IMG/VR virus record: IMGVR_UViG_3300028048_000054
Origin: a virus
Lineage: Duplodnaviria; Caudoviricetes
Strand: one strand, 5' to 3'
Length of the DNA: 64,000 nucleotides
The notes under the pieces: generated by a model
The model's input: only the letters and a program-made list of their open reading frames with translations
What the model was told of the DNA's origin: nothing
Databases searched by the model: none
Translations under genes and position numbers: made by a program
Part shown: positions 46,591 to 57,766 of the stretch, in pieces
How the letters are laid out: each line of letters starts with the position of its first letter
Position numbering within the stretch: the first letter of the stretch is position 1

Positions 46591-46662
46591 TACCGATGGC
46601 AGGACTTGAACCCGCAATTCAGAGTTCGTAGCTCTGTGTGATGTCCATTTCACTACATCGGT
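46591..46662 (-). tRNA. tRNA-Arg(ACG)
   Basis: ACCGATG/CATCGGT acceptor, CAGAG-CTACGAA-CTCTG. Confidence 0.9.
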
Positions 46663-47117
46663 ATTACTTTAACTAAATACGCCGCCAATAAGCAGCAATT
46701 AAAAGCAATCAAATTAGACAAAAATACGTCTAAAAACCAATGTGCTTTAACTTTTATTCTTGTCCAGCCACACAGCCAGGCCAACAATAAGAAAGGAATA
46801 AATACATACCAAGGCTGAATGAAAAATAAACAGAAGTAAGCGGGCAAGCAAGCACTCATAGAGTGACCACTGCATAAACTTTCTCCATCCTTATGTGAGT
46901 AACCGTGTACATAAATTACGTGGTCCCCAACGGTATCACGTGGTCTTGGCTCGTCAAATATTCCTTTCAAAATCTGTACAATTAAATTTCCAATACCATA
47001 TACTACTGCAAATAATACCAATAATTTCCACCCACTTAAAAAGAATATCACGGGCAGTGCTGCTATTGGTAGTAACAAAGTTAGAACATCGCCTAATTTC
47101 TTAATAAAGTTCATCAT
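46653..47117 (-). CDS. PAP2-family membrane phosphatase
   Basis: K...EPRP, SGHS, TRI..AHWF.DV motifs, TM helices. Confidence 0.9.
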   Translation of the reverse strand: MMNFIKKLGDVLTLLLPIAALPVIFFLSGWKLLVLFAVVYGIGNLIVQILKGIFDEPRPRDTVGDHVIYVHGYSHKDGESLCSGHSMSACLPAYFCLFFIQPWYVFIPFLLLAWLCGWTRIKVKAHWFLDVFLSNLIAFNCCLLAAYLVKVIPM

Positions 47118-47241
47118 TAATCTTTTCCTTTACAAGTCTTCTCTTTGCTTTATTTCTTTGTCTTTTTGCTAACTTTCTTGCTGAAGTTTTGGTTGTTGTG
47201 TACCGCCACTCATCTTGTTTAACGTGTAAATCTCTGTCCAT
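47101..47241 (-). CDS. small very basic protein (46 aa)
   Basis: MDRDLHVKQDEWRYTTTKTSARKLAKRQRNKAKRRLVKEKINDELY fills the gap between genes. Confidence 0.5.
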   Translation of the reverse strand: MDRDLHVKQDEWRYTTTKTSARKLAKRQRNKAKRRLVKEKINDELY

Positions 47242-47242
47242 A

Positions 47243-47545
47243 TTACCAGATTGCGTATTTTCTTTTTTTGGTATCAGGGTCTAGAATTACAAATCTGTTG
47301 TTGACAATTAAACAGGGCACATCTTTCAATTTGCCCTTTTTATTTTTAACTGCGAACATCATTTTCTTTCCTTGATACACCTTGACCTTCGCATATTTAG
47401 GGTCCTTTTCGTGCCACTCTCTTGTTATATTCTTGAACCAATCTAAAGAGTGTTTGGATTCACCGAAGATAACAACGGTGAACCGACTTACTAATTGGCA
47501 TAGTAAGTAATACGTTTTCATCCATAATTCATATACTTTCATCAT
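47243..47545 (-). CDS. hypothetical protein
   Basis: 100 aa ORF. Confidence 0.6.
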   Translation of the reverse strand: MMKVYELWMKTYYLLCQLVSRFTVVIFGESKHSLDWFKNITREWHEKDPKYAKVKVYQGKKMMFAVKNKKGKLKDVPCLIVNNRFVILDPDTKKRKYAIW

Positions 47546-47561
47546 TTAGTTCACCTTAAAA

Positions 47562-47638
47562 TGGCACGTGTCCTTGGAATTGAACCAAGAGTATTCTGGT
47601 TTTGGAGACCAGTGGTTTACCAATTAACCGAGACACGT
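47562..47638 (-). tRNA. tRNA-Trp(CCA)
   Basis: ACGTGTC/GACACGT, CTGGT-CTCCAAA-ACCAG, encoded CCA. Confidence 0.92.
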
Positions 47639-47694
47639 AAAATGGTGCGGAAGGAGGGAGTCGAACCCTCACGGACTTGCGTCCAACAGATTTT

Positions 47695-48287
47695 CGTACC
47701 ACACTTACTTTCGTAAGCAACTTTCGTTTTGTAGTCTGGACTTTATCTTTACCATAGATTTCTCTTTAGGTAGTGCCTGTTAAGTCTCTACACCTTCCAT
47801 TTCTGGATTGGCTCGGTATTCCCATAGGAAAGGGTTCACCGAATTTAAGCACATTCAGTCATAGACTTTCGTCTACGCTGCTCGTCTGTACCATATAGAC
47901 CACTACACTTTCGTGAACAAAACGGACCTCTCTTACCACGTTTTGAATCACTTGCTCTGCGTTGTTGTTGAGCACGTGTCATTGTAAATTTCTTACCACA
48001 ATACACACAAGTTGCAACAACATTATCAGAATACTTAGTAGAGTGTTGTCGTTGATGTTCACCACGAGGAATAACAGTCAAATTATCAAGACTATTATTT
48101 TTCATATTTCCATCTATATGGTGTACATCTTCATATGGTTCTAATGGCCTTCCTAATTTTTCAGCCATTAGTATTCTAGGATAAGATATGACTTTGTGTG
48201 TTACTTTGTCATAACACCGATACCTACCATCTTTATTTACATAGATATTGTATCGTTTTGTGTCTACCATAATATCTTCCTATATCC
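47695..48287 (-). mobile_element. group I intron (trnL/IC3-like) encoding an HNH endonuclease
   Basis: U before the 5' splice site, terminal G, core AAATTCGGTGAA / AATACCGAGCCAA / GTAGAGACTT / AAAGATAAAGTCC. Confidence 0.88.
47845..48270 (-). CDS. intron-encoded HNH homing endonuclease
   Basis: LGRPL..EDVHHIDGN..NN..DNL and C-terminal CxxC...FCSRKC. Confidence 0.88.
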   Translation of the reverse strand: MVDTKRYNIYVNKDGRYRCYDKVTHKVISYPRILMAEKLGRPLEPYEDVHHIDGNMKNNSLDNLTVIPRGEHQRQHSTKYSDNVVATCVYCGKKFTMTRAQQQRRASDSKRGKRGPFCSRKCSGLYGTDEQRRRKSMTECA

Positions 48288-48433
48288 AAGTCTGTCGCGT
48301 CTACCAGTTCCACCACTACCGCATTATTTATTTCTATTAAGTATTTTGTATGTAATTAAATCTGCCACAACATTAATAAAAATGTTGCCTATAAACCCTA
48401 CAAGAACACCTAATAAAAAATGTATCATAAATC

Positions 48434-48508
48434 TGGGTTGAACGAACGGAATTGAACCGTTGCCTCTTGAGTCACAATCAAGCGGGCTACCATTACACCA
48501 CGCCCAAC
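48434..48508 (-). tRNA. tRNA-His(GTG)
   Basis: G-1:C73, CTTGA-TTGTGAC-TCAAG, CCA. Confidence 0.9.
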
Positions 48509-57078: not shown

Positions 57079-57092
57079 TTCTAATCTCCTAA

Positions 57093-57180
57093 GTCCGAGA
57101 ATATTGATGACGATTGTTTGTTATTGGTTTTAATGTTTAACATACATTTCCACGATGTAATCGTCAAGGCCGCTTCGTAC
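57093..57180 (-). ncRNA. short Y RNA-like element abutting the Ro60 ribosome-binding site
   Basis: GTACGAAGCGG...TGACGATT/AATCGTCA...ATATTCTCGGAC, same terminal motifs as the other two. Confidence 0.68.
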
Positions 57181-57203
57181 AAAAATCGTTGGCCTTTTAA
57201 ATT

Positions 57204-57275
57204 TGCCGACTGATGGAATTGAACCACCTACGCTTGCCTCTTCAGGGCAACGCTCTACCGATGAGCTAAGTCGGC
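57204..57275 (-). tRNA. tRNA-Phe(GAA)
   Basis: GCCGACT/AGTCGGC, TTGCC-CTGAAGA-GGCAA. Confidence 0.92.
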
Positions 57276-57285
57276 TTCAAAATGT

Positions 57286-57379
57286 ACCACCCCTACGCCG
57301 ATGCTCGCGGCTTTATGAGTCCATCCTCACATTATCGGGACCTTAACCCGATGCTCTCATCTCGAGCACAAGGAGTGGT
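57286..57379 (-). ncRNA. candidate structured small RNA
   Basis: ACCACTCCT/AGGGGTGGT, TGCTCG/CGAGCA, ATCGGG/CCCGAT, TGAG/CTCA helices. Confidence 0.5.
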
Positions 57380-57387
57380 TTAAAAAG

Positions 57388-57460
57388 TAGCAGGGACAGG
57401 AATCGAACACTGTTTTTTCTTGGTTATGGGCCAAGCAAGATACCTTACCTTCCCCCTGCG
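57388..57460 (-). tRNA. tRNA-fMet(CAT)-like
   Basis: C1xU72 mismatch, CGCAGGG/CCCTGCT, CTTGG-CCCATAA-CCAAG. Confidence 0.8.
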
Positions 57461-57668
57461 GTCAAATTGTCAAATATCAAAATAACTGCCCATTTTAGGG
57501 GGCTATATAATGTTTGAGTGTATACCATTTTAACTTTTGGTGGGGACTTGTTTCTTATGTTACCATCCCCACCTAACCCTAAAATGTACCAGAAATCAAA
57601 CCCTGTTCAATAATAGTATGTTTTAGTTTGTATGGTACAAATGTTGATTGGTCACTCTCAACAAAAAC

Positions 57669-57766
57669 ATTATATCAAATTTCTTCATTTTTGTCAAGTC
57701 CCCTGGGTTCTAAACCAGTTTCCCTTGACTTACTACTATTATACCATTTTTACTTATTTTTGTCAA
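57669..57766 (-). promoter_or_regulatory. tandem sigma70 promoters (57669-57697, 57738-57766) heading the RNA island
   Basis: Two TTGACA-17-TATAAT with extended TG. Confidence 0.82.

What the first reader, a model, noticed from the sequence alone, without database searches (positions are those of the whole stretch)
46591..57766. An 11-kb phage RNA island: near-complete tRNA set, Ro60 RNP, tRNA mimics and unknown structured RNAs
Seen: 23 tRNA genes covering all amino acids except Lys, interleaved with Ro60, three Y-like RNAs, three enlarged tRNA-like RNAs, a 1.25-kb structured region and several other hairpin modules. All are co-oriented behind tandem promoters with a repeated boxA-like element. 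Inference: a coordinated translation-protection system that supplies, decoys, surveils and (with the Pnkp-ligase) repairs tRNA against host RNA-targeting defences. tRNA processing would release the intervening ncRNAs.
Basis: partly seen in the sequence, partly recalled or inferred. Interest (0 to 1): 0.9.

Follow-up and report, generated by a model that had tools for sequence, protein, structure and literature searches.

The report
Phage tRNA island with Ro60 RNAs
A 171-kb cattle-rumen phage packs 23 tRNA genes, a Ro60 RNA-binding protein with three partner "Y RNAs", homing endonucleases and about 4 kb of conserved folded RNAs of unknown function into one strongly promoted operon. The Ro60 part is a known kind of particle; the extra RNAs are new.

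Summary
On the minus strand, between 57766 and 46590, I find:
- 19 canonical tRNAs, one tRNA-Leu(UAA) split by a 593-nt group I intron carrying an HNH gene, and three sub-threshold tRNA-like genes (CAU, Ser-UGA, Cys). Lys is the only amino acid missing.
- A Ro60 (TROVE+vWA) gene.
- Exactly three Y RNAs.
- Four perfect sigma-70 promoters.

The Y RNAs share a handle (outer stem, AGCGG, inner stem, UUACWUC ... AAUAUUC, outer stem). A model built from other phages finds this handle beside Ro60, always on its strand, in 90 of 100 distant phage loci and in Bacillus phage G.

One Y RNA (ARAGORN's second "tRNA-Phe") is a tRNA cloverleaf fused to the handle by its acceptor end. The same layout recurs in at least five other Ro60-phage lineages.

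The "1.25-kb structured RNA" is not one giant RNA. It is six independently present or absent modules with only local covarying helices.

Most gaps fold far better than column-shuffled controls, have no Rfam match, and are over-represented in rumen RNA libraries.

A Ro60-less relative keeps these modules but has no Y RNAs.

The "coordinated protection system" reading is only partly supported. This scan has noted phage Ro60-like proteins with handle-bearing RNAs before, on other DNA.

The parts
57669..57766 (-). Tandem consensus sigma-70 promoters (57766-57738 and 57697-57669), the start of the island operon
   Evidence: 12/12 matches with 17-nt spacer and extended -10 TG; read directly
57389..57459 (-). 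Sub-threshold tRNA-like gene with CAU anticodon loop. It is preceded by one copy of the 17-nt repeat GATATTTGACAATTTGA (57478-57462).
   Evidence: Rfam tRNA 26 bits; ARAGORN at relaxed threshold; repeat; relatives carry a normal tRNA-Met at this position
57288..57378 (-). Module M1: cloverleaf-shaped RNA with a 10-bp closing stem and four hairpins, no Rfam family, restricted to this phage clade
   Evidence: 30 pairs, 6 covarying, 0 mismatched in 5 lineages; z = -9.5 against column shuffles; model R2 hits only the window among 100 sources
57204..57275 (-). tRNA-Phe(GAA), canonical
   Evidence: 63.6 bits
57092..57181 (-). Y RNA 'Y-A': short hairpin-type Y RNA whose 3' end lies 5 nt from the Ro60 Shine-Dalgarno sequence
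   Evidence: R1 45.6 bits, E 1e-8; compensatory changes in outer and inner stems across 6 lineages
55444..57078 (-). Ro60/Rsr homologue (TROVE + vWA, 544 aa)
55126..55436 (-). tRNA-Glu(UUC), tRNA-Tyr(GUA), tRNA-Asp(GUC)
54995..55125 (-). Module M3: structured RNA with a long stem and a 5' hairpin, followed by internal promoter 54993-54965
   Evidence: 37 pairs, 5 covarying; z = -7.3; promoter
54810..54924 (-). Y RNA 'Y-B': Y handle fused to the acceptor end of an unpermuted tRNA-like cloverleaf (4-bp acceptor, D arm, anticodon arm with loop CUGAAGA, T arm; no CCA). ARAGORN calls it tRNA-Phe 54831-54906.
   Evidence: R1 38.5 bits; alignments A2 and A7; the anticodon differs among close relatives (GAA, UAA, degenerate)
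54655..54801 (-). Y RNA 'Y-C': YrlA-type Y RNA with a permuted tRNA-like domain (T arm, closed acceptor hairpin with invariant ACCA, D arm)
   Evidence: R1 29.5 bits; Rfam YrlA 27 bits here and 37 bits full-length in L003, both below the 69-bit gathering score; 8 covarying pairs, z = -8.4; alignment A3
54567..54649 (-). tRNA-Thr(UGU) with an extra arm, followed by a 15-bp hairpin (54566-54513)
53315..54512 (-). Six structured non-coding modules: A 54512-54306, B 54306-54170, C 54170-53942, D 53942-53730, E 53730-53563, F 53563-53315.
   Evidence: Module presence or absence differs among 6 lineages. Every covarying helix spans 121 nt or less and stays inside one module. z = -8.0 (A), -6.2 (C), -6.3 (F), with weaker values for B, D and E. 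No ORF under any code. No Rfam hit.
52983..53312 (-). tRNA-Ala(UGC), module M6 (53236-53059: acceptor stem and canonical T arm enclosing two long arms, an 'enlarged tRNA-like' RNA), and tRNA-Val(UAC)
   Evidence: M6 has only near-identical or partial relatives, so there is no covariation evidence for it.
52495..52982 (-). Module M7: 488 nt non-coding and structured
   Evidence: 9 covarying pairs in the 3' half, z = -4.4; an RNA contig at depth 153 covers 52610-53244
51583..52494 (-). tRNA-Pro(UGG), pyruvoyl-dependent arginine decarboxylase (51845-52408) and an 83-aa membrane-like ORF
   Evidence: PvlArgDC E 2e-61
51300..51580 (-). Module M8: two tandem tRNA-shaped RNAs with T arms of the variant type stem-UGCAAAU-stem
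   Evidence: 10 covarying pairs, z = -4.1; ARAGORN relaxed calls the first one Ser(CGA)-like
51010..51299 (-). tRNA-Gln(UUG), internal promoter 51137-51109, and sub-threshold tRNA-Ser(UGA)-like gene 51099-51010 with encoded CCA
   Evidence: L002 has a normal tRNA-Ser(UGA) at the same place
49957..51004 (-). HNH endonuclease gene (50534-51004); tRNA-Ile(GAU); structured 5' domain (50466-50316) with sub-threshold tRNA-Cys(GCA) (50315-50229); tRNA-Ser with anticodon ACU (50226-50138); module M11 (50137-49957)
   Evidence: M10 has 17 covarying pairs, z = -6.6; M11 has z = -8.2.
48434..49956 (-). HNH-type gene 49450-49956; tRNA-Asn, Gly(UCC), Gly(GCC), Leu(UAG); HNH_3 gene 48578-49123; tRNA-Arg(UCU); tRNA-His
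47643..48322 (-). tRNA-Leu(UAA) split by a 593-nt group I intron (48287-47695) that carries HNH_3 ORF 47845-48270
   Evidence: ARAGORN with introns. The ORF-less homologue in L001 scores 50.3 bits against Rfam Intron_gpI and is 95% identical to window 47862-47638. An RNA-library contig joins 48288 to 47694 exactly.
46023..47638 (-). tRNA-Trp, ORF of 100 aa, PAP2 phosphatase (46653-47117), tRNA-Arg(ACG), ORF of 171 aa, and intrinsic terminator 46054-46023

Best explanation
This is the stable-RNA operon of a roughly 171-kb uncultured cattle-rumen phage. Four consensus promoters drive long precursors.

Shown, from anatomy and comparison:
(a) A near-complete tRNA set that supplies the phage's translation.
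(b) A self-contained Ro60-Y RNA unit. The Ro60 ring protein has three partner RNAs, each clamped by the same conserved Ro60-type handle. One is a plain hairpin abutting the Ro60 ribosome-binding site. One is a YrlA-type permuted tRNA mimic. One is an acceptor-fused tRNA cloverleaf that displays an anticodon arm.
(c) At least ten further independent structured RNA modules of 90-250 nt, several of them tRNA-shaped, which are not Ro60 partners.
(d) Selfish homing endonuclease genes and one group I intron.
(e) Two auxiliary enzymes.

Inferred:
- Host RNase P, RNase Z and RNase E cut at the tRNAs and so release the modules.
- By analogy with bacterial Rsr-YrlA and Thermus phage phiLo Ro60-Yrl, the RNP recruits host exoribonuclease and acts on structured or damaged RNA. 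This is possibly a counter-defence role.
- The unknown modules most likely act as stable regulatory or decoy RNAs. Their function is not known.
For: Anatomy.

Y handle:
- A motif search gives 234 hits on the Ro60 strand in 129 of 172 loci, against 5 on the other strand and 5 in shuffled sequence.
- The inner stem, which the search did not require, has double-sided changes at 8 of 8 pairs. Covariation score is 0.85 against 0.22 in shuffles and 0.14-0.30 when the partners are slid.
- Model R1 finds exactly 3 hits in the window.
- It finds 139 hits, all on the Ro60 strand, in 90 of 100 distant loci.
- It finds 7 hits around gp540 of Bacillus phage G.

Joint loss: Ro60 and Y RNAs are both absent from relative G001, which keeps M1, M3 and modules A-F.

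Modules:
- They are conserved at 73-98% where the Ro60 gene is 78-79% identical at the DNA level.
- Consensus folds have z from -4 to -9.5 against column shuffles.
- They contain compensatory helices.
- They are non-coding.

RNA libraries:
- In two bovine metatranscriptomes, island contigs have depth 15-50 and flanking phage genes 1.5-8.
- In two others, only ncRNA modules are assembled, at depth 50-425, with nothing over the Ro60 ORF.

Literature:
- Y RNAs lie near Ro60 in bacteria and 22 phages, are co-transcribed with tRNA, and M. smegmatis YrlA is cleaved by RNase P (PMC4201824).
- phiLo Ro60 binds two upstream Yrl RNAs and host PNPase (PMC12135203).
- Bas63 Ro60-like gp130, next to a tRNA array, counters the Ppl defence (PMC11482910).
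Against: - No RNA ends, strand information or Ro60 binding are shown. Logan contigs give one depth figure per contig and may contain DNA.
- Most module alignments have only 3-6 lineages. Some of these lineages are recent recombinants, so conservation partly reflects exchange rather than selection.
- Modules B, D and E and Y-A have weak consensus-fold z-scores. M6 and M9 have no informative relatives.
- Single-sequence folds are unremarkable (z from +0.1 to -1.6).
- The host is unknown, so tRNA supply against host codon usage cannot be tested.
Confidence: 0.62

Rival explanations
1. The whole island is one coordinated translation-protection system: tRNAs resupply, tRNA mimics decoy anticodon nucleases, Ro60-Y RNPs surveil damaged tRNA, and the phage Pnkp-ligase repairs it.
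For: - All parts are co-transcribed.
- Y-B-type chimeras display well-formed anticodon loops in at least six lineages. Lys-UUU, a classic anticodon-nuclease target, is the commonest.
- The window encodes a kinase-phosphatase-Rnl1 fusion.
- In Salmonella the rsr-yrlBA-rtcBA operon is switched on by damaged tRNA (PMC7790460).
- Bas63 Ro60-like gp130 counters a defence system (PMC11482910).
Against: - G001 keeps the unknown modules without Ro60 or Y RNAs.
- Modules are gained and lost independently.
- The repair enzyme is 33 kb away in another gene block.
- About a fifth of the island is selfish endonuclease DNA.
- The Y-B anticodon is not conserved even among close relatives.
- No nuclease, decoy or repair activity has been tested.
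Confidence: 0.22
2. The 1.25-kb gap (53313-54566) encodes one giant ornate RNA of the GOLLD/ROOL kind.
For: - It lies beside tRNAs in a phage, as GOLLD and ROOL often do (bioRxiv 10.1101/2024.12.08.627333; PMC5737381).
- It is GC-richer than the flanks.
- It is highly represented in RNA libraries.
- Relative G001 has all six modules in the same order at 80% identity.
Against: - No GOLLD, ROOL or other Rfam hit at E below 1 with permissive filters.
- Modules B, D and E are cleanly absent in some relatives while their neighbours stay.
- An RNA-library contig carries the version lacking 53558-53724.
- Every covarying helix found spans 121 nt or less and stays within one module.
Confidence: 0.08
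3. The inter-tRNA segments are debris: decaying tRNA genes, intron and homing-endonuclease remnants, and spacers. They look conserved only because related phages exchanged these segments recently.
For: - The region is a mosaic, with 90-98% identical patches next to 70-80% ones.
- Three tRNA-like genes score below threshold where relatives have normal tRNAs.
- M1 and the other modules are confined to one clade.
Against: - Compensatory base changes keep helices intact in the diverged copies.
- Consensus folds are 4-9 standard deviations better than column shuffles.
- Loop sequences of M1 are invariant while its closing stem covaries.
- The modules are abundant in RNA libraries.
Confidence: 0.08

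Closest known systems
Bacterial and phage Ro60 (Rsr)-Y RNA ribonucleoproteins: S. Typhimurium YrlA/YrlB, M. smegmatis YrlA/YrlB, D. radiodurans Yrn1/Yrn2 (Chen et al. 2014, PMC4201824; Rfam RF02553), and Thermus phage phiLo Ro60 with Yrl1/Yrl2 (PMC12135203)
   Same: - A TROVE+vWA protein with several small RNAs encoded next to it on the same strand.
- The RNAs are closed by a 5'/3' stem with a conserved internal motif. The core GAAGCGG is also present in D. radiodurans Yrn1, as read from the complement of the published Yrn1 probe. It contains the CGAA-type signature.
- One RNA carries a permuted tRNA-like domain with T arm, closed acceptor hairpin and D arm.
- One RNA is a plain hairpin.
- The RNAs are co-transcribed with tRNA.
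   Different: - None of the three reaches the Rfam YrlA gathering score (27-37 bits against 69).
- The handle consensus (AGCGG ... UUACWUC ... AAUAUUC) is a phage-wide variant.
- Y-B joins the handle to the acceptor end of a complete cloverleaf with a 7-nt anticodon loop. The nearest precedent is the partial 'anticodon arm' modelled for Yrn1.
- The RNP gene sits inside a 23-tRNA island.
Phage tRNA clusters with free-standing homing endonucleases and stable small RNAs of unknown function (T5 tRNA region; T4 tRNA operon with species 1 and 2 RNAs), from my own knowledge
   Same: - A multi-promoter tRNA operon.
- HNH genes between the tRNAs.
- Extra stable RNAs processed from the same precursors.
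   Different: - Far more non-tRNA structured RNA here (about 4 kb).
- A Ro60-Y RNA unit.
- An intron-split tRNA-Leu.
tRNA-Leu(UAA) group I introns of cyanobacteria and plastids (Rfam RF00028)
   Same: - The insertion is in the anticodon loop of tRNA-Leu(UAA).
- The 5' exon ends in U and the intron ends in G.
- The ORF-less form in relative L001 reaches the Rfam gathering score.
   Different: - It is in a phage.
- It carries an HNH_3 homing endonuclease ORF, which breaks the Rfam match in the window itself.
GOLLD and ROOL large ornate RNAs
   Same: Phage-borne, next to tRNAs, ORF-free and highly structured.
   Different: No covariance-model match. The region is made of separable modules with only local helices.
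Escherichia phage Bas63 gp130 (Ro60-like), a counter to the Ppl defence (PMC11482910)
   Same: A Ro60-like gene directly beside a phage tRNA array. The authors suspected that some of the 'tRNAs' are Y RNAs.
   Different: I did not compare its sequences here. Function in the rumen phage is untested.

Membership tests
Ro60/Rsr (TROVE + vWA) | TROVE (HEAT-repeat ring) domain | tested here: met
   Pfam PF05731, 30.7 bits against a 23-bit cut-off. phmmer to phiLo Ro60 chains 9KOP/9L5Y gives E 2e-8 over residues 32-344. There are thousands of homologues, and some sources name them 60 kDa SS-A/Ro.
Ro60/Rsr (TROVE + vWA) | C-terminal vWA domain with MIDAS DxSxS motif | tested here: met
   D324, S326 and S328 are invariant in a 22-sequence alignment. 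The fold itself was not modelled.
Ro60/Rsr (TROVE + vWA) | Binds Y RNA on the outer ring surface | not testable with these tools
   Needs EMSA, RIP or a structure
Y RNA (YrlA/YrlB type) | Encoded within a few kb of Ro60 on the same strand | tested here: met
   The three hits lie 14 nt upstream and 520-790 nt downstream of Ro60. All 139 hits in 100 other loci are on the Ro60 strand.
Y RNA (YrlA/YrlB type) | 5' and 3' ends pair into a stem carrying a conserved Ro-binding motif (CGAA-type) | tested here: met
   The outer and inner stems covary. The GAAGCGG core is invariant. The full CGAAG is present in Y-A and in most family members; Y-B has GUGAAG and Y-C has GGAAAG.
Y RNA (YrlA/YrlB type) | At least one Y RNA has a tRNA-like domain (T arm, acceptor hairpin, D arm) | tested here: met
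   The cmscan alignment of Y-C to RF02553 covers model positions 23-85, and L003 aligns full-length. The stems covary.
Y RNA (YrlA/YrlB type) | Reaches the Rfam RF02553 gathering score (69 bits) | tested here: not met
   27.1 bits in the window and 37 bits in L003. There were no gathering-level YrlA hits in 7 related loci. I therefore file these as divergent relatives, not as RF02553 members by score.
Canonical tRNA | Cloverleaf with 7-bp acceptor stem, discriminator and 3' end, above tRNA model thresholds | tested here: met
   Met for 19 genes and for the intron-split Leu. Inconclusive for the three sub-threshold genes. Not met for Y-B, which has a 4-bp acceptor running into the Y handle and no CCA.
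Group I intron in tRNA-Leu(UAA) | Catalytic core recognised by RF00028; insertion in the anticodon loop; U at the exon end and G at the intron end | tested here: met
   The core is met only through the 95%-identical ORF-less homologue in L001 (50.3 bits against a 50-bit cut-off). The window copy gives no RF00028 hit at E below 1. The boundaries come from ARAGORN, from the sequence and from an exact 593-nt skip in an RNA-library contig.
GOLLD / ROOL | Match to the family covariance model; one large domain held together by long-range pairs | tested here: not met
   No hit at E below 1. Modular presence or absence and only local covarying helices.
rrn-type boxA antitermination element | Sequence resembling the boxA consensus, placed downstream of promoters | tested here: not met
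   The repeat GATATTTGACAATTTGA (two copies) does not resemble the boxA consensus as I recall it. It contains a TTGACA box. One copy lies about 10 nt and the other about 185 nt downstream of a promoter start.

The most novel reading that the evidence does not exclude
Two things may be new.

1. A recurrent class of Y RNA in which the Ro60 handle is fused to the acceptor end of a full tRNA cloverleaf. It presents a normal anticodon arm and cannot be charged. Lys-UUU is the commonest anticodon; Phe, Leu, Ser, Thr and Tyr also occur. It could be a Ro60-tethered bait or sensor for anticodon nucleases or tRNA-modifying enzymes.

2. A set of at least ten undescribed structured RNA families (M1, M3, A-F, M7, M8, M10, M11). 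They are abundant in rumen RNA libraries, act independently of Ro60, and may be phage regulatory or counter-defence RNAs.
Probability: 0.2. Interest if true: 0.85.

Novelty: new variant of a known kind. Interest (0 to 1): 0.6.

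Why it matters
Phage tRNA clusters are usually annotated as tRNAs plus empty gaps. Here the gaps hold about 4 kb of conserved, folded RNA that appears to be abundant.

The Ro60 gene comes with a clearly definable partner-RNA family that current Rfam models miss, although it sits beside Ro60 in most phage loci examined. A simple handle model (R1) would allow Y RNAs to be annotated across phage genomes. That includes the cultured Bacillus phage G, where experiments are possible.

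The acceptor-fused tRNA chimeras give a concrete, testable idea of what the tRNA-like parts of Y RNAs are for.

A natural Ro60-less relative separates the Ro60 unit from the other RNAs.

Tried and rejected
- **Phage database:** megablast of the island against 50,697 phage records found nothing. No whole genome is held for the window.
- **Close Ro60 relatives:** none in IMG/VR with the single protein as query.
- **Motif scans:** exact motifs from modules A, B and F found only one IMG/VR contig (G001) and nothing in 185,579 prokaryote genomes.
- **Rfam:** the E-value scan of the island gave nothing for the modules. The weak Twister-sister, tmRNA, snoRNA and 7SK hits are chance, and one of them overlaps the YrlA-like T arm.
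- **Model R2 (M1):** no hit in 99 other sources, so M1 is clade-limited.
- **Single-sequence folding:** uninformative, z from +0.1 to -1.6.
- **Hidden genes in another code:** rejected. The longest stop-free run in the 1.25-kb region is 87-115 of 418 codons under the standard code or with TGA, TAG or TAA reassigned, and substitutions show no 3-base periodicity.
- **boxA identity of the 17-nt repeat:** rejected.
- **RNA ligase or Pnkp immediately downstream of the island:** not found. The fusion is at 11138-13345.
- **RNAalifold on the chimera alignment A7:** it mis-paired GCGG with UCGU instead of the inner stem, an alignment problem. I rely on its anticodon-arm and T-arm counts only.
- **The genome search with R1 on G001:** empty, but it had no positive control. 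I repeated the search with cmsearch on the G001 island loci beside positive controls.
- **RNA contig joints 54852->57204 and 55355->57286:** I read these as assembly cross-joins between similar tRNA-like sequences, not as biology.

Full report
**Source and setting.** The window matches a 171,395-bp ENA contig (L170) at 100% over the island. Runs that hold the stretch are labelled bovine, goat and sheep gut metagenomes. It has no near match among 50,697 deposited phage genomes. Every feature discussed is on the minus strand.

**tRNA set.**
- ARAGORN finds 20 tRNA-shaped genes between 46590 and 57275. All but one reach the Rfam gathering score in the whole-window scan, and tRNA-Ala scores 48 bits in the regional scan.
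- Allowing introns adds tRNA-Leu(UAA) at 48322-47643 with a 593-nt intron.
- Relaxing the threshold adds a CAU gene (57459-57389), a Ser(UGA)-like gene with encoded CCA (51099-51010) and a Cys(GCA)-like gene (50315-50229). Relatives carry normal tRNA-Met, tRNA-Ser(UGA) and tRNA-Cys at the corresponding places.
- One ARAGORN call, 'tRNA-Phe' 54831-54906, is not a tRNA (see the Y-B section below).
- The count is therefore 19 canonical + 1 intron-split + 3 sub-threshold = 23, with Lys alone missing.

**The intron.**
- The ORF-less homologue in relative L001 reaches the Rfam group I gathering score (50.3 bits). It is 95% identical to window 47862-47638, although the two phages are otherwise about 70% alike.
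- The exon ends in U and the intron ends in G.
- An RNA-library contig joins 48288 to 47694 exactly. This is either spliced RNA or an intron-less allele.
- The intron carries HNH_3 ORF 47845-48270.

**Ro60.** ORF 55444-57078 (544 aa) has a TROVE domain. It matches the solved Thermus phage phiLo Ro60 and keeps an invariant DxSxS MIDAS motif. It has more than 3,400 homologues in metagenomes, on contigs up to 250 kb. Among 85 fetched loci longer than 15 kb, 54 have five or more tRNAs within 10 kb of Ro60, so Ro60 inside a tRNA island is common in large phages.

**Three Y RNAs with one handle.**
- Reading the gaps and aligning relatives showed three RNAs closed by the same module. It consists of a 6-7-bp outer stem, AGCGG, an inner stem of about 8 bp, UUAC(A/U)UC (UGCAUC in Y-B), the payload, the inner-stem partner, AAU(A/U)AUUC, and the outer-stem partner.
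- A bare motif search (six bases, AGCGG, then within 40-320 nt TTC followed by the complement of the six bases) gave 234 hits on the Ro60 strand in 129 of 172 loci. It gave 5 on the opposite strand and 5 in shuffled sequence.
- In an alignment of 49 short members, the inner stem, which the search did not demand, shows double-sided changes at all 8 pairs. Its covariation score is 0.85, against 0.22 in shuffles and 0.14-0.30 with slid partners.
- Model R1, built from these other phages, finds exactly three hits in the 64-kb window with filters off: 57181-57092, 54924-54810 and 54801-54655.
- It finds 139 hits, all on the Ro60 strand, in 90 of 100 distant loci. In many loci the nearest hit ends within 200 nt of the Ro60 start.
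- It finds seven hits around gp540 of cultured Bacillus phage G, five of them in the unannotated 1-kb gap just upstream.
- The GAAGCGG core is also in D. radiodurans Yrn1, read from the complement of the published probe. It contains the CGAA-type signature that others describe for Ro60 binding (PMC4201824, PMC12135203).
- These are therefore Y RNAs of a known kind, though none reaches the Rfam YrlA threshold.

**The three payloads differ.**
- *Y-A* is a hairpin-type RNA that ends 5 nt before the Ro60 Shine-Dalgarno sequence. Self-regulation is therefore a possibility, but this is an inference.
- *Y-C* is YrlA-like. It has a T arm, then a closed 7-bp acceptor hairpin whose stem covaries while the following ACCA stays invariant, then a D arm.
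- *Y-B* has the opposite topology. The handle continues into a 4-bp acceptor, followed by a D arm, a 5-bp anticodon stem with loop CUGAAGA (identical to the loop of the real tRNA-Phe at 57204-57275), and a canonical T arm. There is no CCA.
- Close relatives of Y-B carry GAA, UAA or a degenerate loop.
- The same acceptor-fused layout occurs in at least five other Ro60-phage lineages. Their anticodon loops read Lys-UUU (five cases), Ser, Leu, Thr, Tyr and UUA.
- In a 16-sequence alignment, the anticodon and T stems covary at 5 of 5 and 3 of 5 pairs.

**Unknown structured RNAs.**
- The remaining gaps are conserved in five to six diverged lineages (L002, L003, L166, L167, partly L001, and IMG/VR contig G001). 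Identity is often higher than in the neighbouring Ro60 gene.
- Consensus folds beat 40 column shuffles by z = -9.5 (M1), -8.2 (M11), -8.0 (A), -7.3 (M3), -6.6 (M10), -6.3 (F), -6.2 (C), -4.4 (M7b) and -4.1 (M8). Values are weaker for E (-3.1), D (-2.9) and B (-1.6); B appears to contain a pseudoknot.
- M1 has invariant loops and a freely covarying closing stem.
- The 1.25-kb region is non-coding under any code.
- It breaks into six modules that come and go independently. B is missing in L003. D is present only in the window, L002 and G001. E is missing in L002 and L167.
- Every helix with compensatory support spans 121 nt or less and lies within one module. I therefore reject the single giant RNA reading.
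- Several modules are tRNA-shaped: M1, M6, the two halves of M8, and the Ser- and Cys-like genes. Five elements use an unusual T loop of the UGCAARU/UGUAAAU type.
- None matches Rfam. M1 is absent outside this clade.
- G001, rated 100% complete by CheckV, keeps M1, M3 and A-F. It has no Ro60 match and no R1 hit in its island, beside positive controls. The Ro60-Y unit and the other modules are therefore separable.

**Expression hints.**
- In two bovine metatranscriptomes that hold this phage at 99% identity or more, island contigs have depth 15-50 and flanking phage genes 1.5-8.
- In two other RNA libraries holding relatives, only non-coding modules are assembled. These are 52610-53244, 53434-53903, 53812-54139, 54148-54506, 50124-50434 and 51122-51855, at depth 50-425, with nothing over the Ro60 ORF.
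- Contigs carry one depth figure each and cannot show ends or strand. This is suggestive evidence, not proof.

**Proteins and mobile DNA.**
- About 47% of the island is coding. The genes are Ro60, a pyruvoyl arginine decarboxylase, an 83-aa membrane-like ORF, a PAP2 phosphatase, a 100-aa ORF and four HNH-type endonuclease genes.
- Variants of the same phage differ by the presence of one HNH gene.
- M11 precedes three unrelated endonuclease-type ORFs in relatives.

**Regulatory signals.**
- There are four perfect sigma-70 promoters, all on the minus strand and all in gaps, and a 14-bp-stem terminator at 46054-46023.
- The 'boxA-like' element is a 17-mer present twice. It is conserved in relatives but does not resemble boxA.

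**Interpretation.**
- The safest reading is a stable-RNA operon that bundles separable units. These are a tRNA set, a Ro60-Y RNA particle, independent structured RNAs, selfish endonucleases and two enzymes.
- The Ro60 unit probably works like known Rsr-Y RNA and phiLo Ro60-Yrl particles, which recruit PNPase (PMC4201824, PMC12135203). A counter-defence role is plausible, given Bas63 gp130 (PMC11482910).
It is weakened by the Ro60-less relative, by the independent turnover of modules and by the distance to the repair enzyme (11138-13345).

**Novelty.**
- Phage Ro60 with Y RNAs is published, and this scan has noted handle-bearing RNAs beside phage Ro60-like genes on other DNA.
- What I found in no paper searched is the family-wide handle definition, the acceptor-fused chimeras as a recurrent class, and the module families.

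Noticed in passing
window 50138-50226 (minus strand); also L176 1395-1481: The tRNA-Ser has anticodon ACU instead of the usual GCU. Relative G001 shows the same, while L001 and L002 have GCU. The change is therefore kept in two lineages and is not a one-off error.
   Followed up: partly
window 49957-50137; L166 4001-4163 and 6857-7019; L167 2492-2648; L002 17291-17471: A structured element of about 165 nt (M11, z = -8.2) sits directly upstream of three unrelated endonuclease-type ORFs in different relatives: HNH-type, DUF2116-like and DUF559. It may be a mobile leader or a homing-site module.
   Followed up: partly
window 11138-13345 (minus strand): A 735-aa fusion of polynucleotide kinase (AAA_33), Metallophos phosphoesterase and T4 Rnl1-type RNA ligase. 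It is an RNA end-healing and sealing enzyme. A lone tRNA-Met lies nearby at 15476-15551.
   Followed up: partly
L183 (Bacillus phage G, JN638751.1) 5724-7877 and 13305-13369: Seven hits to the Y handle model lie around the TROVE gene gp540. Five are tandem in an unannotated 1-kb gap. The record also annotates a tmRNA and a UUA 'tRNA-other' nearby.
   Followed up: partly
window 51467-51578, 51305-51466, 51010-51099, 50229-50315, 54655-54801: Five non-canonical tRNA-like elements share a T loop of the type UGCAARU/UGUAAAU, with G in place of the universal U55. The canonical tRNAs of the island keep UUCRANU.
   Followed up: no
window 2527-6131 and 39731-42849: The phage also carries an FtsH-like AAA+ M41 protease, serine hydroxymethyltransferase, an IMPDH/GMP-reductase-family enzyme and an F420-0:gamma-glutamyl ligase-like protein.
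   Followed up: no
L168 13982-15722: In a 63%-identical Ro60 phage, an IS605-type TnpB (OrfB/Cas12f-like) and a Y1 transposase lie 2.4 kb downstream of Ro60. That locus has Y RNA hits but no tRNA island.
   Followed up: no
L169 against L170 (variants of the window's own phage): Two contigs 99% identical over most of the island differ in the 49630-47654 stretch. One lacks the HNH_3 gene 48578-49123 and has a 203-aa ORF in place of the 168-aa HNH-type ORF. This points to ongoing endonuclease gain and loss.
   Followed up: no
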